Positions 31 through 41,789 of a stretch of DNA of 64,000 bases are shown one piece after another. Location of the stretch: positions 12,338,001-12,402,000 of the forward strand of contig JBHGNT010000021.1 in assembly GCA_043228905.1 (NCBI GenBank), in the 5' to 3' direction. Below the pieces are notes generated by a model that saw nothing but the letters and a program-made list of their open reading frames with translations, searched no databases and had not been told where the DNA came from. Both the position numbers and the translations under genes were made by a program. Position 1 is the first letter of the stretch. Each line of letters starts with the position of its first letter. The stretch comes from Azolla caroliniana. Its lineage: Eukaryota > Plantae > Polypodiophyta.

Positions 31-420
31 CATTTAAAGTGGGAGAGTATGTTGTATAACCAAAACGGATCATGAAATATATTCTTTGTAGTTTTTTCTA
101 ATCTTATGAGGAACGACTACATGTGGGTTAGTTCTGGAAGGATTACGAGGTTATTGATTGATTTACAATTCTATGGTGTGAGATAACTATTAAGTGTATT
201 ATTACTTGACCACTTCACACCGTAGGTCATGGTATGGTCACACACCATGACCTAGGGTTTTTGCCTATATAAGAAGGCTAGCTACCTTCTTAGTGAAGGA
301 GTCTTAGCTTATGTTGAGCCTATGTAACTATGGTTATGGCTCTTGTTAACGAAGCACATGAGAACCTTGTGGAACTCAAGGTACGAATCAGATAATGTAT
401 GGGACATCGAGGAGGTTTGG
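31..420 (+). mobile_element. Probable degenerate 3' LTR (PPT followed by TG-start LTR); right boundary uncertain
   Basis: Purine tract aagtgggagag followed by tgttgtataac at ~50 and a TATA-like cctatataag at ~265. No partner LTR is seen in the window. Confidence 0.3.
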
Positions 421-5160: not shown

Positions 5161-6783
5161 ACCCTTCCGGTCGGCTTGTCTGCTCATGCAGCCTTTCTCA
5201 ACTCCCTTGCTATCGAGGTGTTGGCACCTCTTTCGCTACCCTTTTCTCCGCTTAGCCCTCAGTTGATTTGGCGTGTTTGACTCGAACATTTCTGATTCAT
5301 TCTCGCTTTAACTACATCCGACCATGTCTTAGTCCTGGCCTTTACGCCTTTCTTGGCTTTGCTTCCCCTTTGTTCGGCTGTCTTCGGCTCTTCCTTGCAA
5401 TAACGGCCCCTGTTTTCTTCTTCGGCTTCTTCACCTGGCCCGAAATCCAATTCTTCATCCGATTCGGCATCGCGGTTACTACCGTTCCTTTCACGCTCCT
5501 ATTCCCGTTCTTGTCTCCCCCTCAAGTTCGGTGTGTCAAGGTGTCGCAAACCCAGCTGAACCGAGAAATGCCGTAACTTGTCGAGACCAAGGGGCTTGGT
5601 GAAGATGTCGGCAATCTGCCGACCCGTCGGAACATACGCCAGTTCGACTTCACCAGAAAGGACACGCTCGCAGACAAAATGGTAGTGCACCTCAATGTGC
5701 TTGGTCCGAGTGTGGAATACAGGGTTTTTCACAAGGTGGATGTTGTTGAGGTTGTCGCAGTAGATTGTCGTTGGATCAGACACCTCTACGTGCAGATCCC
5801 GTAATAGCCATTTCAGCCAAATGACTTCTCACGTAGCGACTGTCACCCCTTGATATTCGACCTCTGTGCTCAACAGTGCTACTGTCAGCTGCTTCTTACT
5901 GCTCCATGCGATCACCGCACATCCCAATGAGAATGCGTATCCGGATGTGGATCTACGATCGTGGGCATTTCCGGCCCAATCGGCATCCGTCTAGCTGACT
6001 AACTGCTCAGCTACATCTACACAATACAACAACGCCATGTCTTTCGTGCCGCTGACATATCGTAATATCCTTTGCGCGCACTGAAGGTGTTTGGTTGTGG
6101 GCTGCGACATAAATTGACTGATCATTCCGACCGGATAGCTGAGTTCCGGCAGAATGATCATCAAGTAGATGAGGCTTCCGACAATCTGTCAAAACTGTGC
6201 CGGGTCGCACGCCTTTCCCGAATCTGGATGAAGGTTTACGTTGTCATGCCTCTTGGCGCCGGATCGTTATGTGAGTCGGGTGGGAACCGCTGGGGTTTTG
6301 GACTAGGAGAAAGGAGATCGTGAGATAGAGATTAATTATGAGTAGATAGCAAAGAGAAAGATAAGAAACTCGTGAATCACACAAGTATACTATATTAATT
6401 GGTACTTAGGTTGTTAAGAAAGAAGTAGATGCATAAATCGTGAATCCCACGAATAATTTTTATATTGATCAATACTTAATCCAAAAATAACCAACCCTTA
6501 TACATCTTTCTCTCCTCCTTATATAAGGATAGAAGAGGTTAAGCATAGCTTCTTGCTTTTCTAAAGTGTTCATGCTCTCTAAATTTGCATGCTTTACTTT
6601 TCCCACTACAATTTCCTAAATTTAGCATTCATGCCCGCTAGATGTGCACGCGTAATTTTATTAGTGTGCATATAAATAAAGTTTCACGCATTCTAAAAAT
6701 GCATGACTTACCTTTTAATAAAGGTAGGCAAAAATAAAGGTTTTATACGTATTAAATCTATATTCAAAACACTTAGAATAAGT

Positions 6784-6863
6784 TAGTACAATGGTAAGGT
6801 TGGAGTTTGTCTGTGCGGAGGTGTAGGGTTTGAATCCTACCCTATGCATGTAACAGAAATTTT
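6784..6863 (+). promoter_or_regulatory. tRNA-like Pol III type-2 cassette (A box, B box, TTTT) in the C 3' LTR
   Basis: TAGTACAATGG ... GGTTTGAATCC at tRNA spacing; stem GTAGG/CCTAC; TTTT at 6860-6863. Confidence 0.55.
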
Positions 6864-7310
6864 AATGTTTCTTTTATTTACAATTGTGTCTCTTCATCCC
6901 GTAAGAGACTCTCACCAGCCTTCTTCATCTGGCTCTTCCTTGCCGATTCCTCCTTGCCGGTTCCTCTTCGTCCGGTTTTCATCGGGTATTTCATTCTCTA
7001 TCCGGATGGGCAAAATGCAATTTCCACGTAGTGTGTAAATTACACTATGACACTCACCCCCTCTAAACCCGCACATCCTCTGGTATGTGCCGAAGTTCCC
7101 GATGTTCTATATTCGCCTCCATCCGTATCGCTCTCTGAATCTTCCCTTATGTCGACTACGAGTTGAAGTCCACTTTCTTCGCTATCCACATCACTGCGAT
7201 CTTTGTCTGGTTGTTCCTCATTGTCGGTGTCGTAGTGTATTTTGTACACTACGTGAAAAACGTATATAGTATTAGATTCAATAAAAAATGAAGAAATAGA
7301 AGAAAATAGC

Positions 7311-7390
7311 AAAATAAATGGAACATGCATAGGGCAAGATTCGAACCTTGCACCTCCATGTTAATAATGTAATGTCTTACCATTACACTA
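7311..7390 (-). promoter_or_regulatory. tRNA-like Pol III type-2 cassette in the D 5' LTR
   Basis: Minus strand TAGTGTAATGG ... GGTTCGAATC; stem GCAAG/CTTGC; TTTT ending at 7311. Confidence 0.6.
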
Positions 7391-7992
7391 GCATTTCATT
7401 AGTGTTAAAGCATAGATGTCCCACATAGAAAGGTAAATTCACGCTAGGATAAACATTAGAAAAACGCATAACAAAAGAAAAAGCTACACATACACATCTA
7501 GCGTGCATGATAAAAAACGCACAAGTTAGAAAAAAGCATGATCACTTTAGATAAAGCATATAGTCTATCTATAGGAAAAGCATGGGGTCTATAGTTAGAG
7601 AAAAAGCATGGATTATTAAGACTTCCTCATCACTACATAAGGATGGGAAGCACAATGTAATTGGGTGTGAAATACTTGGAAACTGGATATGTTTATAAAA
7701 AACACCAATTAATAAACTATACTCGTGGGATTCACGAGAATTCTATATCATTCTCTTTCAACCGAAGTTTATATTCTTATATTCATATTGATTAATCTAA
7801 TACAATACACTCGTGGGATTCACGAGTTTGCTATAACTCTTTCTTACAACATATTTATATTCTTATTAGCCTTAAAACTCTCTTCTTCCTAGTCCAAAAC
7901 CCCAGTGGTTCCCACCCGACTCACGCAAACGATCCGGAGCCGAAAGGCACGACACAGTTGGTGAACCCGACGTGAAGGCGGGTGGCAAGGAG

Positions 7993-10023
7993 ATGGAGAA
8001 TCAACAAGAGGCGATGAACATGATGATGATAATGTTTGAGCGGATGCAACAAGAACAACGTGCGATGTCGGAGATCACGGGGGCAGTAAAGCGGCTCGTG
8101 CGACGAAACGGGGAATTCAACGGTAAGGGTGTGTCACGCTACCTACGTGAATATAAGGCGGAGATGATGCAATATCGGATACCGGAAGGATTGCAAGTGA
8201 TATCCTTTAGTCGGGTGGCCTCGGACGAACTACAAGAGAGAATCCACAAGATACAACAACAAAACTCGACATGGGAGTCCTTTGAAGAAGCTTTACGGGA
8301 GGCATATGACTATGAGAGATGGACGGGACGAGATCGACGAGAATTCGACGAATGGGTGGCGTCGGAGAAGACTCACCGAAGTGCAACGCAAGCGTTCCTA
8401 GAGTTCGAGCATCGTTTTGCTCGACTCTCGGAGCGGGAACGAAGATTGGTGGGAGGAGATAAAGTCTTAATGTTCGTAAGATCGATCGATCGGAAAGAAA
8501 GGATGGACATTGGGATCGAACTCAAAGATGATGACGGTGCGAACGGCCTTACCGAGGATTGGGCTAAAGTCGAAAGGGTATGCCGAAGACATAATGAAAG
8601 GAAGCTGAGAATCTCGTCAACAACGACATGGCCCATGAAGGATGGTCGATTGAGGAAAAACGATGAAGCCAATATGAAGGCCGAAATACAACATGATGGT
8701 ACCACGGGAGAAAGAGTGGAACAAGACACCCACTCGTCTTGTGAAAGAACGATGGCGAAGGATAAGGCCGATAATTCAAGTGTAGAAGGAAATTTCGGGA
8801 TACAAGTGCCCGAGACATCGGGTCAAAAAGGGGTAAGCATAATAGATGTTTGCATAATTGATGCAGATAAAGAGTGTGAAGCGGATGTGATTAAGGAGGT
8901 AGCCACAAAAGACGAAATCGAATCGGAGGTGGCTATGGACGAATCAATGGCGGATTGCCATATCGAGACTTCCCCACCACTGATTCCAGAGACTCCGGCG
9001 GTTGCGATCGAAAGGCAACGTGAGACCGAAGAGACGGAAGGTGGCGGAGAGAAAACGAATGTCGAAGCCGACGAATACGATGAAGAGATAGCCGAGAAGA
9101 ATGCTAAGGGTGAAACTACGAAAGAAGGTAATACCGAGGATTCATGCCAACAATATCTAGAGACTTCGGCGGTTGTGTCCGAGAACCAACGTGAGACCGG
9201 AGAGACGGGAGATGGCGGCGAGGAAGGTAAAGTCGGAAGTCGGTTCGGATGGAAAATGATCCATCCGAAATTCCAATCTAAAAGAAAGTGCGACAATGCG
9301 GAGGTCGGGTCTACGACGGGAGAAGCGCGTAATACAGAGCACGCTCTACGGCGAATAAAGAAACGCGTGTTATGGCGAATAAAGAAGCACGCGCTACGGC
9401 GAGAAAAGAAGCATGCATTACAACCACACGAGGACCGAACAACGAGCACATATCGGAGGACCTACGTGGCGAACAACGGAAAGAAGTGCCGAAAGTCGAA
9501 CCGGACAAGGCAGGTGAAAACGAAGAAAAGAAAGCAAATCCGGATGAAAAGAAAAGAAAAGAAACCGACCCGAAAGAGCACTGAATCGGTAAAAACCGAT
9601 CAACCGAGTCCGGATCGACTGAATACAAATCGGAAAGGAAGCCGAACTAAACGAAAGACGATCCGACGAGACCGAATCGGAAGTAAGCTAATCCGACTAA
9701 ACCGAAAATCCGAAAAGAAGTCGAGATTGATGAAGAAAAGAAAGAGGGCAAGAAAAGATACTACCGCGGATGACAAGGACCAAGCGGGCCATGCAAAAAG
9801 CGAACGAAGACTATGGTGGATCGGATGTCGACAATGGTTCGGGTGGAAAGAATGGATGTGCTCCAAATGGAGAGACAAAGTCAACATAACAAGAGAAGTC
9901 GAGGGTACTACGAGCCGGCAACGAAACCAATCGGGTAGAGACCGGACGAAGGAGACTAACAAACACCAACAACTTCGGCACATACCGGAGGATGTGCGGG
10001 TTTGGAGGGGGCGAGTGTCGTAG
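7993..10023 (+). CDS. Gag-like protein of element D: N-terminal ~200 aa homologous to C Gag, then an acidic and a K/R-rich region
   Basis: MENQQ...RNGEFNGKGVSRYLREYKAEM aligns with C MENQQ...RNGQFNGKDVSRYLQDYKAEM. Open from the first ATG after the PBS to a TAG inside the 3' LTR. No CCHC knuckle. Confidence 0.75.
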   Translation: MENQQEAMNMMMIMFERMQQEQRAMSEITGAVKRLVRRNGEFNGKGVSRYLREYKAEMMQYRIPEGLQVISFSRVASDELQERIHKIQQQNSTWESFEEALREAYDYERWTGRDRREFDEWVASEKTHRSATQAFLEFEHRFARLSERERRLVGGDKVLMFVRSIDRKERMDIGIELKDDDGANGLTEDWAKVERVCRRHNERKLRISSTTTWPMKDGRLRKNDEANMKAEIQHDGTTGERVEQDTHSSCERTMAKDKADNSSVEGNFGIQVPETSGQKGVSIIDVCIIDADKECEADVIKEVATKDEIESEVAMDESMADCHIETSPPLIPETPAVAIERQRETEETEGGGEKTNVEADEYDEEIAEKNAKGETTKEGNTEDSCQQYLETSAVVSENQRETGETGDGGEEGKVGSRFGWKMIHPKFQSKRKCDNAEVGSTTGEARNTEHALRRIKKRVLWRIKKHALRREKKHALQPHEDRTTSTYRRTYVANNGKKCRKSNRTRQVKTKKRKQIRMKRKEKKPTRKSTESVKTDQPSPDRLNTNRKGSRTKRKTIRRDRIGSKLIRLNRKSEKKSRLMKKRKRARKDTTADDKDQAGHAKSERRLWWIGCRQWFGWKEWMCSKWRDKVNITREVEGTTSRQRNQSGRDRTKETNKHQQLRHIPEDVRVWRGRVS

Positions 10024-10098
10024 TGTATTTTGTACACTACGTGAAAAACGTATATAGTATTAGATTCAATAAAAAATGAAGAAATAGAAGAAAATAGC

Positions 10099-10178
10099 AA
10101 AATAAATGGAACATGCATAGGGCAAGATTCGAACCTTGCACCTCCATGTTAATAATGTAATGTCTTACCATTACACTA
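10099..10178 (-). promoter_or_regulatory. tRNA-like Pol III type-2 cassette in the D 3' LTR
   Basis: Copy of 7311-7390. Confidence 0.6.
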
Positions 10179-10746
10179 GCATTTCATTAGTGTTAAAGCA
10201 TAGATGTCCCACATAGAAAGGTAAATTCACGCTAGGATAAACATTAGAAAAACGCATAACAAAAGAAAAAGCTACACATACACATCTAGCGTGCATGATA
10301 AAAAACGCACAAGTTAGAAAAAAGCATGATCACTTTAGATAAAGCATATAGTCTATCTATAGGAAAAGCATGGGGTCTATAGTTAGAGAAAAAGCATGGA
10401 TTATTAAGACTTCCTCATCACTACATAAGGATGGGAAGCACAATGTAATTGGGTGTGAAATACTTGGAAACTGGATATGTTTATAAAAAACACCAATTAA
10501 TAAACTATACTCGTGGGATTCACGAGAATTCTATATCATTCTCTTTCAACCGAAGTTTATATTCTTATATTCATATTGATTAATCTAATACAATACACTC
10601 GTGGGATTCACGAGTTTGCTATAACTCTTTCTTACAACATATTTATATTCTTATTAGCCTTAAAACTCTCTTCTTCCTAGTCCAAAACCCCAGTGGTTCC
10701 CACCCGACTCACGCAAACGATCCGGAGCCGAAAGGCACGACATCGG

Positions 10747-13700
10747 TCTCGTCTATGGCTACATAAAATTCGTTGTTAGTCCGCTTCTTGAAGATCTTCA
10801 CCCGTTTTCCTGCTATAGGCACTCATAGTATCGTTCCATCCAACTCACTTACTCGGTAAGTTTCGTTGTCGAAAACTTTCCGAACCTCATATGGGCCGAA
10901 CCACCTTTTTGCGAACTTCCGTACAGTTGTATGTTGATGATCCAAACTACTGTCATAGACAATCACCCAATCTCCTTCTTCAATCTTCCGTGGTCGTAGT
11001 CGGTGCTTGGTGTCGAACCAGCTTTTGTTCCGGAGTCGCACTTCTTGTTGTCGGCGTGACGCTTCCGCTACATCTTCCAGTCTTCCCTCCAGTTGTCATA
11101 TCCAGACCGCTAGTAGTTCTTCCCGGCTCATCTCTTCCTTCCACGGTAGCATTGTCCATGTCACGATTGCGGTTTCTATCGGCATTACCGGTGCTTGTCC
11201 GGTCATAAGTTCTGCTGGCATATAACCGGTTACAGAGCTATGCGTCGTCCGATCCACCCATAGTGCATACGGGAGCATCTGCGGCCAATCCATCACCCTT
11301 CCGTCGCATGCTTTGGCAAGTGCTTTGACGATCGGACTATGTCCTCACTTGACCTTCCCGTTGGCTTCCGGATTGTATGTCGTTGTTAGTGTTAACCGAA
11401 CTCCATGTTTGGCGAAGAATCCCTTAGCTTTATCAGAGTCAAGTTCTCCCTGATCCACAATCACTTGTCCTACGCACCCGTACCTGCAAAACACTTCTTC
11501 CAAAAGAAATTGACATACCGCAGAACACGTTTTTCTTCGTAGCGCCTGACCTTCTACTTGATTTGTGAGATCTTCCCGAGCTAACACCAAGTACTTCTTT
11601 TGTCCGATCCCGGTTGGCATGGCTACAATGTCGACCATCCATTTGAAGTTGATTGTCGGTGAGAATGTCGGATGTAACTCATCTTGGTGTCGAACTCCGG
11701 AGTAGATTTGACACTTCTCGCAGCTTTCCGTGAACTCCGCGACATCTTTGTACATATTCTTCCACCCTCTTTGCTTGATCTTCCCAAATGTTGCCCATGT
11801 TCCCCGATGTCCAGCCCAATCAGATTCGTGAAATTCGAACATTACCTGGTTTCGTTGCTCTTTTGTCTCGACTACTCGAAGTGGTATGCCACCCGGTGTT
11901 TTCGGCTCCTTCCATAAAAATCCATTTTTCAAGAAGAACTTTCGGACTTGCCGTTTCTTACTTCGGAACTCGGCTCTCTTCTCTTTATTGTCTGATGATT
12001 CCTCGATTTCTCGTAGCATTTTCCCGATCAACAAGCTTTCTCCCTCGTATTCTTCTTCCCGGAATTCTTGGATTACGTCCACCCGGCATATGTGCTCCGA
12101 AGCAAAGTAGTCTTCAGAAACTTCTTCATTATCGGATTCGGTTATGTCATCTCCGAACCGCGCCCTTGATAGCATATCTGCTATAGCGTTGTCTTTTCCG
12201 GAGATGTGTCTTACCTCCGGATTAAGTGACTTAACATATGCAATCCACCTTAGCATAGCCACATCCGGTATAGTACAACACCGCATCATCCCGAGTATCG
12301 GAAGACAATCCGTTTCGATCACTACTTCGGCTCCGATCAAATAATCTCGATCCGATTTGATTGCCGACACGACTCCCCATAATTCTCTTTTGACTTGCGC
12401 ATACCCGTGTTGCCTTTCGTTGAGAACCTTTGCTCCAAATCGGATCGGATATCGCGAACCATCCGAGTCGAGTTGATTGATGACCCATCCGATTCCGGTT
12501 GGACTTGTATCAACCATTACTATAACCGGTCGGTTATAGTTCGGCTTCTTTAGAGCTTCAGCCCTCCGCAATGTTTTCTTGAGCTTCCTCATGGCTTCGG
12601 TGTGTTCCGGTTTACATTCGAACTTCTTCCCCTTCCGCAACAAGTGATAGAGCGGGTCCGCAATATGTGCGTAGTGCGGAATCCATATGTGATAGAATGC
12701 ACATGCTCCAAGAAACCTTCGGACTTCGGATTGTGACTTGCATACTTCTTTCATAGCTTGAATCGCATTGATCTTGGTTGGTGACGGTCTTCGGCCGTAG
12801 GGCCCACATAGATGTCCGACTACCAATATTTCTTCTTGTCCGAATGCCGATTTCTCTCCAGAAAGTGTTAGATGCACATCTTCTAACTTCCGTAACACTT
12901 TCCCACAATCACAGATATGGTTGACTACGAACCTCCGGCATCCCCGTTCATCCATAGCTTCATCTTTTTCTTCCACCGCACACCCTTTTATCGGAATGTC
13001 ATCTAGGAACGGCATCGTTATCTCCGGTATGCAATCCCCTAGCACCTTGTTCATCGCATTCATCATATGTGCGACTGAGTTTGTCGCGCCTTGTGGTAGC
13101 GTACACATCCGGACTAATCCTATCGGTGTCTGCATGGTAGTGATGTCTCGGCTCTCCACGGTTAGTTGGAATTGGTCATATCCAGAGTATAGGTCTCCGA
13201 TGGAGTATATCGCGCGAACGGCAAATGCTTCCGCAAATTCGTCCACTATCGGACCAACTCCGGAATTCCGGATCGTGACCTTGTTCACCGGTTGCAAGTC
13301 TTGGATAAATTGGAGTGATCCATTCTTCTTCGGAACCGTAAACCATCAATTTGAGCACGGAGCGTTTGATGGCTCTAGAATCCCCATCGCCACCTTCTCC
13401 TTGAGCAAGTCGATGACTTTCGGAATATGCGCCCACGGCACCGGAATCGGCTTCAGGCTCCACGGCACATGGTCAATCATGAAGATCACCATCGGCTCCA
13501 CTATCTTCGGATCAACGCACCCTATCTCCTTCGATGTGAATGCAAATGCTTTTCCATGTTGTTCCAGCATCTCACGAAATCGTTCTTCTTCTTTTTGTGA
13601 GAGGAAACCACCTCCACCAATCCGAAGTTTCTTCTGGGTCTCATCCGAGAAGGTATGTCCGATATCCACAGACTTCTGAAGTGTCGGATCCCCCGAGACT

Positions 13701-14160
13701 TCTTTCCTCTTTTGTTCGCTATCTGCGGGTAACGGTCCCGCGGCCGGTTTCACTTTCTTCTCCACGGTCTTGTATTTCGTACTTACCATTGCTTCTTCTT
13801 TGCGGAGTGCATCCGGCCCCATTTTCACAATGATCTCGTACATCTCGACCGACTCCACTAGAATTACCCGGTTTCCCTAGCTTGTATCTTCTGCGAGCTC
13901 TTCAAGCCGTTGTAGTGTGCTCCCATAGAACACTTCTTCGACTATTCCCACGATTTCTTCGCCTTCTTTTATTATTGATGCCGACCGTAACTTATCCTCC
14001 ACTTTTCGGTATTCTTTCTTCATTCCTCCGATTACGGCCGTGTACATGGATGCCCCATTCGGACCGATTCATACTTGTTTTGCACTGAGAGATTTCTTCC
14101 TGTGTGGGGTATCAAGGCTTCTCAGACTATCACTTCCCCACTCCGCAACAGTCTGCTCTA
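10747..14160 (-). pseudogene. Element C ORF2: RT-RNase H-integrase
   Basis: ORFs 13346-13858 and 11345-13297 share a frame. Motifs DLYSGYDQ, LPQGATNS, PFLDD, GHRG, YNPEANG, WFGPY. The acidic tail continues at 7053-7227 beyond the D insertion. No chromodomain seen. Confidence 0.85.
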
Positions 14161-16198
14161 AAAATCCATTCTTGTTTGGGACAAGAGCTCTCTCTTGTTC
14201 CTTTCATGATTTTCCGGCACCGTTAGGAATTGGACGGATTTCGCTCCGTTTTGGCTCCGAATTCGTGCAAAAGCTGCACCGCTATCGAGCACCTTTGTCT
14301 CCATCCGTGAAGCCATGATAAAGGGTTGCCCGAGGATCACGAAGTGTGAGACCTCATCTTGCACGAAGAAATTTTGGTCTATCTCCACATCCCCGATCTT
14401 CACCATCACATCCGGACAAGCCGCAAATAGCTCTTCCGTTGCTTTAGTGGTTGCCCGGATCTTCCACCCATGATTCGTGTTAATAGGCCACTTACCCTTC
14501 TGGTAGAACTCCTTGGACATCAAGTTGATCTCCGATCCATGATCAATCAATGCTAGCACAGGCTCTTTGATGTTACCGATTCGGACCGGAGTCTCCGTAG
14601 TTGCGCGTGCCCAGTGTGGCTTTGTGTAGTGAGAATTCGGTATTTCATCCTCCAATTCGATGTCATTCATTAGAACGGTATTTGCATTCACCCTTGGAGT
14701 GTTCTCCTCCGTACTTTGCCTTTTTCTCTTCACGAGATCCACAAGAAGATCGTGGAACTCCTTCTTTGCTATTCTGAGTAATTCTCGAAGCGAAAAATCT
14801 ACTCGGCTATCGAGGATTCTCTCCTCGAACACCTTTTTCAAGTATGTTTGTTGTTCGATGTCCGAGGCGAGCTTGAATGCCGGAATCATCTTTTCTTTTC
14901 CCTTACCTCCGGAGTTCCAACTTTCCGGTGTCTTCGATGGGCCGGCCACCTCATCCGTGCGCCGTCGCTTCTCATCTAAATACACTTCATGCAATTGGCA
15001 TAAAGCAAACACACTATTCTTATCCACGGGGCATTCCCATCCTGTAGCTTCACGGATGCTTTCCGCGGTGCTTCGGATCTCATTGGAGTCGGTTTTCTCG
15101 GGGTTTTCTAGCATATCCGGCCAAAAAGACGCCTTTGCTCCCTAACGACTCACCCACACTTATTCCCACGATTGTCGCATAATTACCTTTTTCCGCTATT
15201 TCCTCCTCTAGAACCTTCTTCATGCCGCCTTTCCGGAAGTTCGGTCGGAGTGGCTTCCGAGAGTCCATCGAATGAATCCGATTTCCCTCGTAGTAGATAA
15301 GATCCCGTCGTAACGCCTCCTTGTGCTCGTCGCAATCCCTCCAATCGTGTTAGGTGCTATCACACCATATACATCGACGGTCCATATACTTGGAGTTTGT
15401 GGGACGGTCTCCCGACTTCTTCACCATCGCGATTTTCAGATTCTCCATATCTTTCAGCAACTGCTCCACCGTGGTTGCGTCAATCCCCTTCTCGATCGTA
15501 GTCTCTCGAGTCTGCAGTTGATGGTCCTCCAATCCGGATCTCGGTTTCTGAATCGGTTCCGAAACCCTCTTCTCTTCATTAGCAAGCCATTGCCCCCTCT
15601 TCGCGTATCGCGCGACGATATCCTGCACGCTTTCCCACGTTTCGGTGAGGCCTCTTTCGGTGTTCGTGTCCTCCAGAAGCACTCCGAGATCTTTCCGGTC
15701 CCGGACGTCCACAGCTCGCAAAAACATGATGACTTTGTCCGGTGCAAGAATAGTTTGATCTCTCGCGGACAACCCCCCGAACCGACTTTCGAATGACAAA
15801 AACACTTCGAGGACCTTCAACCCCTTACCTGGCGTTTCCACCCAATCTTCGAATCCCCTCCACGTTGCCTTGGAGGAGTCCTCGATAGCGAACGTGGTCT
15901 TTAACGTTTCTTCAAATGCTTCCCATGTTGGATTTTGCTGTTGTAACCCGTGGATACTCCCTTGAAGCCCATCAGTCACCACCCGGTTGAAGGATGTCAC
16001 TTGTAGTCCTTCCGAAATCCGGCACCGGAGCATCTCTGCCTTATAGTCCTGCAAATATCGCGACACATCCTTACCGTTGAATTGCCCGTTGCGTTGCACG
16101 AGCCGCTCTACTGCTGCTGAAATCTCCGACATCACGCGTTGTTCTTGTAGCATCCGCTCGAACATCGCCATCATATTGTTAGCTTGTTGATTCTCCAT
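14158..16198 (-). pseudogene. Element C ORF1: gag-zinc knuckle-aspartic protease (one stop, one 1-nt frameshift)
   Basis: ATG at 16198; knuckle CIWCDST*HDWRDC with an internal stop at 15350; apparent extra G near 15140; protease ALIDHGSEINLMS; ends MDF* at 14158. Confidence 0.8.
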
Positions 16199-16778
16199 CT
16201 CCTTGCCACCCGTATTCACGTCGGGTTCACCACTTGTGTCGTGCCTCTCGACGCCGGATCATTACGTGAGTTGGGTGGGAACCGTTGGGGTTTTGGACTA
16301 GGAGAAAGGAGATCGTGAGAAAGAGATTAATTATGAGTAGATATCAAAGAGAAAGATAAGAAACTCGTGAATCACACGAGTATACTATATTAATTGGTAC
16401 TTAGGTTGTTAAGAAAGAAGTAGATGCATAAATCGTGAATCCCACGAATAATTTTTATATTGATCAATACTTAATCCAAAAATAACCAACCCTTATACAT
16501 CTTTCTCTCCTCCTTATATAAGGACGGAAGAGGCTAAGCATAGCTTCTTGCTTTTCTAAAGTGTTCATGCTCTCTAAATTTGCATGCTTTACTTTTCCCA
16601 CTACGATTTCCTAAATTTAGCATTCATGCCCGCTAGATGTGCATGCGCAATTTTATTAGTGTGCATATCAATAAAGTTTCACGCATTCTAAAAATGCATC
16701 ACTTACCTTTTAATAAAGGTAGGCAAAAATAAAGGTTTTATACGTATTAAATCTATATTATAAACACTTAGAATAAGT

Positions 16779-16858
16779 TAGTACAATGGTAAGGTTGGAG
16801 TTTGTCTGTGTGGAGGTGTAGGGTTTGAATCTTGCCTTATGCATGTAACAAAAATTTT
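16779..16858 (+). promoter_or_regulatory. tRNA-like Pol III type-2 cassette in the C 5' LTR
   Basis: TAGTACAATGG ... GGTTTGAATCT; stem GTAGG/CTTGC with G-U pairs; TTTT downstream. Confidence 0.5.
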
Positions 16859-18227
16859 AATGTTTCTTTTATTTACAATTGTGTCTCTTCATCCCGTAAG
16901 AGACTCTCACCCGCCTTCTTCATCCGGCTCTTCCTTGCCGATTCCTCCTTGCCGGTTCCTCTTCGTCCGGTTTTCACCGAGTATTTCATTCTCTATACAG
17001 ATGGGCAAAATGCAATTTCCACGTAGTGTGTAAATTACACTACGACAACATTTCTATCTAGAGTGGTCGAGATGGGCTTACAATCTGCCATCCCGAACTT
17101 GAAGAGCATATTCAGTGCGTATTGACGTTGATTGATCAATATGCCTTCGAGGGAACGAATCACTTCGATCCCGAGGAAGTGAAGATCGTCAAGATCCTTC
17201 ATTTCGAACGATGCCGCAAGCTGAGACTTTACACGACTGATTTCTTCCAGGTCAGCACCAACAATGACTAAATCATCAACATAAAGTAAAAGACAAACCA
17301 GTCCACGTCGACCTTGCCAAACGAACAACGAGGAGTCCGATTTGGACGTTGTAAACCCCATTCTACGCAACCGTTGCGTAATCTTCGCGGGGTTTGCTTA
17401 AGGCCGTATAACGCCTTCTTCAATCGGCAAACTGCCGAAGTGTTCTATTTGGATAGAAATATGGGGGGTTGTACCATGTACATTTGTTCCTCAAGATCAT
17501 CTTGCCGGAACGCATTCTTTACATCCATTTGATGTAGTTGCCACCCCTTCACTGCAACTATGGCTAGCAGAACTCGCACGGTAGTCATCTTCGCGACCGG
17601 CGCGAAGGTCTCGTCGTAATCGATGTCGTGCTTCTGCGTGTAGCCTTTCGCAACCAAACAGGCCTTACATCGATTGACCGAGCCTTCGGTGTTGTATTTC
17701 ACGTTAAACACCCATCTGCATCTGATCGGCTTAACACCTTTAGGTGCATCAACCAGGTCCCAAGTCTCATTGTCCGATAATTCGCACATCTCTTCCTCCA
17801 TCGCGGCACGCCAATTTGTGTCTTCTGTCGCTTCTACGTAGCTCTCCGGGTCACGCACTTCCGCCACTCGCATGATGTATGCATAATGATGTGCCATGTA
17901 CTCATTATACCCGTACCTCTTTACAGTGTTCTTCAGGCAGGTAGATCGGCGTAATTCGTGATTACCCGATTTCACGGCCTTTTCAGTCGATTTCGACTTC
18001 TTCTATGGAGATTCCTTTTCAATTGGCCCGAAGTTAGATTCCCTCTGATCTAACCCGGCACTACCGAAATCGTATTCCGACAATTTTTTAATCTTCCCTT
18101 TTTCTTTACGTGTAAACTGTCTCCTCGGTTCTTTACGCGGGGACAACACGGTGTCACATTGTGAAATAAGGCGGGACCACGGGGGCCCTGAACCGAGGAG
18201 CAAGAGAGACAAGAGGAAGTGAGAAGT

Positions 18228-34310: not shown

Positions 34311-34611
34311 CTCTCTGTCTCTGTTTTCTCTGTCTCTGTTTCTCTGTCTGTGTCTCATCTCCCCAAACAAATTGAGAGATACAAGAGAAACACACAGAGA
34401 TTCTTCTTCGTTTCTTCCTGTTTCAGCAGGCAGGGGGCGCAATGTAATCCCCAGGGGAGACTTCCAGCCAGACAGCCCTTCATCTGTGGGTGTGCTGTGC
34501 CATTTCTTCTCTGAACAGAATACCCTCTTCTTTTTTTCGCCTTCTCCCTCTGTGGGTAATGTAAAACGTTTGCCCCTTTTCTCTTGGTAGCTTTCTTCTC
34601 CCTTTTTCCCC

Positions 34612-41789
<7,178 letters not shown>

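What the first reader, a model, noticed from the sequence alone, without database searches (positions are those of the whole stretch)
6784..7390. Antisense tRNA-like Pol III cassette conserved in the LTRs of Gypsy C and its gag-only partner D
Seen: the U3 regions of C and D are mostly hard to align, yet all four LTRs carry a shared module antisense to the element. It has an A-box-like TAGT(AC/GT)AATGGTAAG, a B-box-like GGTT(C/T)GAATC 43 nt downstream (tRNA geometry), CCTATGCATG and a TTTT run. A box to end of TTTT is 80 nt in both C (6784-6863) and D (7390-7311). The stem around the B box covaries (GCAAG/CTTGC in D, GTAGG/CCTAC in C) while the sequence between the boxes has diverged. Known: A/B boxes recruit TFIIIC, T runs terminate Pol III, and Cassandra TRIMs carry 5S-derived Pol III promoters in their LTRs. 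Inference: this lineage maintains a tRNA-type Pol III unit in U3, either making a ~90-nt antisense RNA or acting as a TFIIIC insulator against silencing. I know no description of this for such a Gypsy/TR-GAG pair but could not check the literature.
Basis: partly seen in the sequence, partly recalled or inferred. Interest (0 to 1): 0.85.

Follow-up and report, generated by a model that had tools for sequence, protein, structure and literature searches.

The report
Backward tRNA-type promoter in retrotransposon LTRs
A family of plant jumping genes carries, backwards in its end-repeats, a worn tRNA-gene remnant whose promoter signals change far less than the DNA around them, so it is likely a working docking site for the tRNA-gene transcription machinery rather than junk, although no transcript or binding has been shown.

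Summary
The cassette is real. All four LTRs of Gypsy C and gag-only D carry it antisense in U3: A box, B box 43 nt on, TTTT at +76. C and D look like Phygy-lineage elements (NCGN target sites, tRNA-Trp-type primer site).

A scan anchored on the LTR end, not the cassette, gave 78 LTRs long enough to score; 61 hold both boxes. The ten box-defining positions show 1 change on internal branches against 13.9 expected, while the inter-box stretch drifts at background rate.

CCTAC is a minority state of one LTR copy, and no stem tested around the B box beats shuffles. The cloverleaf is broken. Against a canonical promoter, B-box C56 is T in 34 of 59 copies. No RNA data were available.

Best reading: a captured tRNA-derived Pol III promoter kept as a DNA element, likely TFIIIC-bound and weakly transcribed, that protects the LTR's own promoter. 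It resembles Helenus/Cassandra and foamy-virus LTR Pol III units but cannot drive the genomic RNA. The scan noted antisense tRNA relics before in fungal and protist Gypsies, mostly as passengers; here selection is measured.

The parts
6242..7052 (-). 3' LTR of Gypsy C (Phygy-type)
   Evidence: 96% identical to 16237-17047; 32 differences in 810; TG...CA ends; purine tract just inside at about 7053-7070
6784..6863 (+). tRNA-derived cassette in C 3' LTR, antisense to C: A box 6784-6798, GGAGGT 6817-6822, B box 6827-6836 (T at C56), CCTATGCATG 6841-6850, TTTT 6860-6863
7228..7954 (+). 5' LTR of gag-only element D
   Evidence: identical to 10016-10742; TCGG duplicated at 7224-7227 and 10743-10746
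7311..7390 (-). cassette in D 5' LTR, antisense to D: A box 7390-7376, canonical B box 7347-7338, TTTT 7314-7311
   Evidence: gapless fit to tRNA model positions 8-63 except one inserted base, 13.4 bits, E 2.5, below the gathering score of 29
7959..7976 (+). primer-binding site of D (tRNA-Trp type, the label recalled)
   Evidence: same 18 nt in C at 16215-16232(-); Phygy uses tRNA-Trp in 81%
7993..10023 (+). single ORF of D: Gag-like N-terminus related to C's Gag, long low-complexity tail, no pol domains
10016..10742 (+). 3' LTR of D
10099..10178 (-). cassette in D 3' LTR (identical to the 5' copy)
10744..16258 (-). gag-pol region of C, broken by stops; RT, RNase H and integrase domains in 11345-13345
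16237..17047 (-). 5' LTR of C; target-site duplication ACGT (6238-6241) / ACAT (17048-17051)
16779..16858 (+). cassette in C 5' LTR; B box 16822-16831 (T at C56), arms GTAGG/CTTGC

Best explanation
The U3 region of this Gypsy family carries a backward, unfoldable tRNA remnant whose A-box, B-box and T-run positions are conserved while the sequence between them drifts, and it likely works as a DNA docking site for TFIIIC and RNA polymerase III that would help keep the LTR's own promoter open. Shown: tRNA geometry, family-wide presence, selective conservation of box positions, loss of the cloverleaf, antisense orientation about 250 nt upstream of the TATA-like box. Inferred: an ancestor captured a tRNA gene or tRNA-derived SINE head; TFIIIC binds the B box and adjacent GGAGGT, the A box places TFIIIB, Pol III makes a short RNA of about 95 nt pointing away from the TATA box and stops at the T run; the benefit to the element comes in cis from occupancy (barrier to silencing or nucleosome-free region), not from the RNA's shape.
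For: 61 of 78 LTRs found by an anchor outside the module hold both boxes; spacing is 43 in 59 of the 62 that scored 20 or more. In 60 LTRs the ten box-defining positions have 1 internal-branch change against 13.9 expected from base-matched columns outside the module (0 of 20,000 resamples); the free box positions vary (1.57 per column) and the inter-box stretch is at background (26 against 23.2). The signal holds in each of two clades (0 against 5.8, p 0.007; 0 against 5.3, p 0.001; C56 left out) and against the whole U3 in 16 full-length LTRs (0 against 3.3, p 0.04). One subclade changed the B box only at positions the consensus allows (57 and 59). In three DNA runs 1 of 25 box positions but 6 of 18 inter-box positions show other letters (Fisher p 0.015). 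TTTT lies at +75..85 in 53 of 55 LTRs but inside +0..75 in 3 of 55. Yeast TFIIIC contacts extend to tRNA positions 44-47, where the conserved AGGT sits (PMC11724288 section 26). A kept A box argues for more than a solo B-box site.
Against: C56, a direct TFIIIC contact whose mutation to G abolishes TFIIIC-dependent targeting, is T in 34 of 59 copies and in 83-86% of laid depth for C-like contigs. T56 copies do not have longer terminal branches than C56 copies (0.063 against 0.092), so T56 was likely inherited from replicating elements. Only 19 of 60 have a canonical B box and 11 of 60 both canonical boxes; one subclade has T at A-box G10. The first T run is only four T between A's in most copies. 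Counting all changes, including terminal ones, the signal is weaker (33 against 50.6, p 0.02; 6 against 12.8, p 0.05), and the module as a whole is not significant against flanks (p 0.15). The G/C background pool in the main test is small (8 and 6 columns). GGAGGT and CCTATGCA were added to the tested set after I saw them conserved. LTRs recombine, so the tree is approximate. The cis-protective role has no direct evidence.
Confidence: 0.5

Rival explanations
1. The tRNA relic was co-opted as a cluster of binding sites for Pol II transcription factors in the U3 enhancer; tRNA geometry is inherited and TFIIIC no longer matters.
For: Conservation persists in the clade where C56 is mostly T. CCTATGCA, not a Pol III element, is as conserved as the boxes and contains a CATGCA (RY-type motif, label recalled); GCATG/CATGC recurs 5-7 times per LTR. 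A telo-box-like TAGGGTTT (label recalled) overlaps the B box in 18 of 60.
Against: The pattern of fixed and free positions follows the A- and B-box consensus in both boxes (1 change in 10 defining positions, 11 in 7 free ones), spacing is held at 43, and T4 is kept at the end and nearly absent inside.
Confidence: 0.22
2. The short antisense RNA is the functional product: a hairpin around the B box acts in trans or pairs with the U3 end of the genomic RNA to tune silencing, like foamy-virus LTR Pol III RNAs.
For: RNAalifold finds an 11-pair hairpin on the antisense strand only (92.7% of cells paired; -2.59 against -0.25 kcal/mol on the sense strand; column-shuffle p 0.01-0.07). Wobble-tolerated sides change at background rate (11 against 13.9), disruptive sides do not (2 against 10.7). 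D's unit folds with z -3.7.
Against: No compensatory change beyond shuffles (301 of 500 reach the score); structure conservation index 0.14-0.23; the wobble test is circular because the structure was chosen on the same alignment; C's 5' LTR copy folds no better than shuffles (z -0.1).
Confidence: 0.12
3. Neutral passenger: an old tRNA or SINE insertion carried along in U3, with apparent conservation from chance and shared ancestry.
For: No tRNA call by ARAGORN or significant Rfam match; frequent T56; other U3 blocks are also conserved where alignable; single copies lose the A box (L011, L035, L058/L075) or the whole module (L067).
Against: Box positions are far below base-matched background on internal branches while the adjacent inter-box stretch is at background; each deletion is seen in one insertion only.
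Confidence: 0.1
4. Bipartite primer-binding site: on the sense genomic RNA the U3 copy is complementary to tRNA loops and anneals the primer's D and T arms to bridge the genome ends, as in Ty3.
For: Orientation and U3 position are those of the Ty3 3' PBS component (PMC5371799 passages); the best conserved letters are D-loop and T-loop letters common to tRNAs.
Against: The module's 3' part matches the primer's 3' end read from the PBS at only 6-7 of 15 positions; the PBS is already a full 18 nt; conserved GGAGGT, CCTATGCA and TTTT are not explained. The primer's D arm could not be compared.
Confidence: 0.06

Closest known systems
Helenus TRIMs (TRIMp3; Kojima 2024, PMC10886601; parts 1-4 of 6 read and searched passages, supplements not read)
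   Same: tRNA-derived sequence in the LTRs, conserved around boxes A and B, not a functional tRNA, proposed to arise by SINE insertion into an LTR; includes one lycophyte family.
   Different: Helenus is non-coding, 311-1263 bp, and its Pol III promoter is proposed to transcribe the element itself. Here the unit sits in 727-811-nt LTRs of a 7.3-kb coding Gypsy and a 3.5-kb gag-only element, points away from the element and ends in a T run, so it cannot make the genomic RNA. The paper expects autonomous partners to lack such LTR sequence, but also says that 'not a few' Repbase LTRs resemble part of a tRNA, without describing the non-TRIM cases.
Cassandra and Ajax TRIMs (as described in PMC10886601)
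   Same: Small-RNA-gene promoter kept inside LTRs.
   Different: 5S-derived (type 1) promoter, non-coding elements; in Cassandra it starts the element's own transcript.
Foamy-virus LTR Pol III miRNA units (PMC3993851, abstract and passages)
   Same: Self-contained A box / B box / T-run units inside the LTR of an autonomous retroelement; non-canonical boxes are tolerated.
   Different: They give processed miRNAs from strong stem-loops, shown by experiment; here the structure is weak and tRNA-derived, and no RNA is shown.
Ty3 bipartite primer-binding site (PMC5371799, passages); HIV-1 U3-R tRNA-like motif (search listing only, content recalled)
   Same: U3 sequence that is complementary to tRNA on the genomic RNA.
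   Different: Those match the element's own primer; here the testable 3' part matches at 6-7 of 15.
Phygy lineage of non-chromoviral Ty3/gypsy elements (PMC6317226, passages and one supplementary row)
   Same: 4-bp NCGN target duplication, tRNA-Trp primer site, polyprotein filling the internal region.
   Different: C is 7.3 kb without D, just below the listed 7656-9968 bp; no LTR cassette is mentioned in the passages seen.

Membership tests
Type 2 (tRNA-type) Pol III promoter | A box TNGNNNANNGG at tRNA position 8 | tested here: met
   All four window copies fit; 40 of 60 family LTRs fit; T8, A14, G18, G19 have no internal-branch change.
Type 2 (tRNA-type) Pol III promoter | B box GTTCRANNC | tested here: inconclusive
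   Met in D and in 19 of 60; 27 of 60 differ only by T at C56, including both C LTRs.
Type 2 (tRNA-type) Pol III promoter | tRNA-like A-B spacing and a downstream T run | tested here: met
   Spacing 43 in 59 of 62; TTTT at +75..85 in 53 of 55, usually only four T.
Type 2 (tRNA-type) Pol III promoter | TFIIIC binding and Pol III transcription | not testable with these tools
   No ChIP data; no stranded RNA reads offered.
Functional tRNA gene | Cloverleaf with paired acceptor, D, anticodon and T stems | tested here: not met
   Acceptor 39.8%, D 61.0%, anticodon 41.8%, T 79.3% of cells paired; ARAGORN 0 of 60 at default; Rfam 13.4 bits against 29.
Helenus / TRIMp3 | tRNA-derived sequence with conserved boxes in the LTRs | tested here: met
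Helenus / TRIMp3 | Short non-coding TRIM (up to about 1.3 kb) | tested here: not met
   C 7.3 kb with RT, RNase H, integrase; D 3.5 kb with a 715-codon open frame.
Helenus / TRIMp3 | Pol III promoter able to transcribe the element's own RNA | tested here: not met
   Antisense in 4 of 4 window LTRs and in all 72 profile hits with E under 1e-3. The paper's text does not state Helenus orientation; sense is inferred from its model.
Phygy lineage | 4-bp NCGN target-site duplication | tested here: met
   TCGG/TCGG and ACGT/ACAT; 59 of 81 non-PPT flanks end in NCGN, 16 more in NTGN/NCAN; reference.
Phygy lineage | tRNA-Trp primer-binding site | tested here: inconclusive
   An 18-nt PBS shared by C and D; its assignment to tRNA-Trp is recalled, no host tRNA was available.
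Phygy lineage | RT phylogeny with named Phygy references | not tested
   No labelled Phygy RT at hand; best named hits are liverwort (Riccia) proteins at 62-68%, fungal Gypsies at 34-42%.
Free-standing SINE | Copies outside LTRs with their own duplications and tail | tested here: not met
   All 72 strong hits in 222,619 bases lie inside family LTRs (the loci were selected for LTR ends); 1-5% of laid contigs run on unlike. The genome itself was not available.
Ty3-type bipartite PBS | U3 segments complementary to the primer's T and D arms | tested here: inconclusive
   3' part 6-7 of 15; D arm not testable.

The most novel reading that the evidence does not exclude
An autonomous plant Gypsy lineage and its gag-only parasites depend on a domesticated, backward tRNA-type Pol III unit in U3 that recruits TFIIIC as a built-in anti-silencing boundary, and tolerate or favour a CpG-free B box (T56) that cannot be CG-methylated: a self-insulating LTR.
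Probability: 0.3. Interest if true: 0.82.

Novelty: new variant of a known kind. Interest (0 to 1): 0.6.

Why it matters
Pol III promoters in LTRs are known where they transcribe a tiny parasite (Cassandra, Helenus) or make viral miRNAs (foamy viruses). A backward one under selection in a high-copy coding retrotransposon can do neither in the known way. It would show a transposon using the tRNA machinery as a chromatin device, would spread many potential TFIIIC sites through its host genome, and offers natural C56 and T56 variants to test how strict the plant B box is. It would also turn the recurring 'antisense tRNA relic in a Gypsy' from a curiosity into a selected feature in at least one lineage.

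Tried and rejected
No whole genome is held for this window, so family members came from public contigs. ARAGORN: 0 genes in the window; 0 of 60 modules at default, 9 calls at a lowered threshold with inconsistent isotypes, no control run. Rfam: nothing relevant in 5500-17500; nothing for the second tRNA-like repeat in L052. Viral contigs: 0 for the LTR-end pattern, the Gag alignment, the pol alignment and the module pattern. Prokaryote genome contigs: 3 RT loci without LTR or module, so distant Phygy LTRs were not reached. No RNA holder listed; the one guessed RNA run laid 0 contigs; neither is evidence on expression. Cloverleaf covariation: score reached by 1 of 500 shuffles but only 53.7% paired and relatedness not controlled; rejected. 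Landing-pad idea from earlier scan notes: homology breaks upstream of the A box lie at -23, -45, -68, -68, -73, -117 and beyond -340, no cluster. Sister family lacking the module: the low-scoring LTRs are each uniquely cut or interrupted. T56 as mere ageing: not supported. Depth peaks were not used. The donor tRNA isotype could not be determined. No earlier scan note on this DNA.

Full report
Setting. The window is plant DNA packed with LTR retrotransposons and one S6-kinase-like host gene. Element C lies on the minus strand, LTRs 6242-7052 and 16237-17047, 96% identical, with a broken gag-pol region holding RT, RNase H and integrase domains. Element D, LTRs 7228-7954 and 10016-10742, identical, sits in C's 3' region in the opposite orientation and has one long frame with a Gag-like start and no pol domains. 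Both have 4-bp NCGN duplications and the same 18-nt primer site. This fits the Phygy lineage (4-bp NCGN in 100%, tRNA-Trp in 81%; PMC6317226, passages and one supplementary row); that the site is tRNA-Trp type is recalled. Best named RT hits are liverwort proteins at 62-68%. No RT tree with labelled references was made and the host was not determined.

The observation. The module is in all four LTRs, antisense, with the stated spacing. A loose A..B pattern finds only these four sites in 64 kb, against 0.18 in shuffles. The Rfam tRNA model fits D's copy over positions 8-63 with one inserted base in the T stem, 13.4 bits, E 2.5 for 4227 families: right geometry, not a significant match. The A box lies about 250 nt upstream of the TATA-like box in both LTRs and points away from it.

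Family sample. To avoid circularity I scanned metagenome contigs with the LTR's 5' end: 111 loci, 101 of them with the family's LTR start. 75 distinct loci with at least 185 nt, plus both C LTRs and one D LTR, gave 78. 62 scored 20 or more on the antisense strand (sense-strand best 17); one of these (L035) had lost the A box, leaving 61. Of the 16 low scorers, 2 have the module with small indels, 3 lack the A box, 1 lacks the whole module, 1 breaks inside it, 1 contig ends before it and 8 lose LTR homology before it or at its edge. L035 and L029 (same insertion as L015) were dropped, leaving 60; three with spacing other than 43 were left out of alignment A3 (57 rows). Both integrase-bearing elements (L042, L076, L037) and D-like elements without integrase next to the LTR (L056, L053, L065, L062, L013, L022, L109) carry it. 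The family loci come from a few assemblies with neighbouring accessions, so breadth beyond this host group is not shown.

Conservation. I counted parsimony changes per column on a tree, separating internal-branch changes (fixed in elements that went on to replicate) from terminal ones. T8, A14, G18, G19, G53, T54, T55, C56, A58 and C61 have 1 internal change against 13.9 expected from base-matched columns outside the module. The seven free box positions have 11, the inter-box stretch 26 against 23.2. GGAGGT (0 in 6 columns), CCTATGCA (2 in 8) and the T run (0 in 4) are also conserved; these sets were chosen after inspection. The deficit holds in each clade and, more weakly, against the whole U3 in 16 full-length LTRs (0 against 3.3, p 0.04). 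With terminal changes included it is p 0.02 and 0.05, and the whole module against flanks is p 0.15. Laid contigs of three DNA runs agree: 1 of 25 box positions and 6 of 18 inter-box positions vary. TTTT occurs inside +0..75 in 3 of 55 LTRs, at +75..85 in 53 and in the 75 nt upstream in 50; these counts share ancestry.

Structure. The 5-bp stem is at shuffle level. The cloverleaf is 53.7% paired. An 11-pair antisense hairpin around the B box is 92.7% paired through wobble changes but shows no compensatory excess, and beats column shuffles only at p 0.01-0.07. The constraint is therefore mainly on sequence, as expected of a DNA-binding site.

The C56 problem. C56 is T in 34 of 59 copies, in both C LTRs and in 83-86% of C-like depth. 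T56 copies are not older than C56 copies. In yeast TFIIIC this base pair is contacted directly (PMC11724288, section 26 read), and C56G abolishes TFIIIC-dependent integration of TRE5-A (PMC5391098, passages); I found no data on C56T in plants. Yet the other box positions stay fixed in the T56-majority clade. Either plant TFIIIC tolerates T56 here, helped by the A box and positions 44-47, or another factor reads the motif. This is the main reason that confidence stops at 0.5.

Mechanism. Shown: capture of a tRNA-shaped sequence, its spread through the family, selective retention of promoter-type positions and the T run, loss of fold. Inferred: TFIIIC docking, low-level transcription of about 95 nt away from the TATA box, and a cis benefit to the LTR promoter. 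Rivals are a Pol II-factor cluster (0.22), a functional antisense RNA (0.12), a passenger (0.10) and a Ty3-type second primer site (0.06; 6-7 of 15 match to the primer's 3' end; PMC5371799 passages).

Comparison and novelty. Helenus (PMC10886601, parts 1-4 of 6 read; supplements not read and may bear on this) has tRNA-derived boxes in LTRs but is a short non-coding TRIM; this family fails that membership on size, coding and orientation. Foamy viruses carry A/B/T-run Pol III units in the LTR (PMC3993851, passages). Searches for Helenus/tRNA-like/LTR, Phygy, Pol III/tRNA-derived/within the LTR, tRNA-like/opposite orientation and TFIIIC/LTR/bryophytes listed no paper describing an antisense tRNA-type unit in Phygy or other autonomous plant Gypsy LTRs; most listings were seen as titles and abstract starts only, and subscription papers are not covered. 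Kojima's remark that not a few Repbase LTRs resemble tRNA parts means similar cases may sit undescribed. TR-GAG was seen in a search listing only. Earlier scan notes report antisense tRNA relics in fungal and protist Gypsies, unchecked by me, none on this DNA.

Verdict. A real feature under measurable selection, a new variant of a known kind, function inferred. Interest 0.6.

Noticed in passing
L052 946-866 (-), L014 93-13 (-), L026 1428-1306 (-): A second tRNA-like A/B-box repeat in the host DNA flanking family LTRs, 75-84% alike among the three; its stretch after the B box resembles the module's. It may be a SINE or another element's cassette, and a possible relative of the donor (no Rfam match).
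   Followed up: partly
window 27740-27660 (-): A weaker tRNA-like relic with a B-box-like hairpin, next to what looks like Copia coding sequence.
   Followed up: partly
window 7228-7254, 7026-7052 and the other LTR starts: Every family LTR begins with a strong inverted repeat (alignment fold -11.6 kcal/mol on one strand; part of it was the search anchor), and R/U5 holds two conserved GTG(G/T)GATTCAC palindromic repeats.
   Followed up: no
L042; window 6900-7005: L042 is an integrase-bearing element with a D-like LTR, so D's helper may be that type rather than C. C, L076, L042 and L051 carry 100-160 extra nt between the LTR start and the module.
   Followed up: partly
window 6822-6831 and 16817-16826: A telomere-type TAGGGTTT (telo-box label recalled) overlaps the B box in C and in 18 of 60 LTRs; it needs T at C56.
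   Followed up: partly
window 6837-6842: Three of the 32 differences between C's two LTRs fall within 6 nt just after the B box, which may reflect template switching or conversion between variants.
   Followed up: no
window 7993-10023: D's frame is intact for about 680 codons and runs into its 3' LTR; after the Gag-like part come some 430 acidic and then basic low-complexity residues with no Pfam match.
   Followed up: no
window 34591-41789: Multi-exon S6-kinase-like host gene with a large inverted-repeat element (38500-40400) in an intron (the S6K label is my reading of the translation).
   Followed up: no
L112, L113: Contigs filed under a cyanobacterial and a Streptomyces assembly encode RTs 55-58% identical to C's, probably plant contamination.
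   Followed up: no
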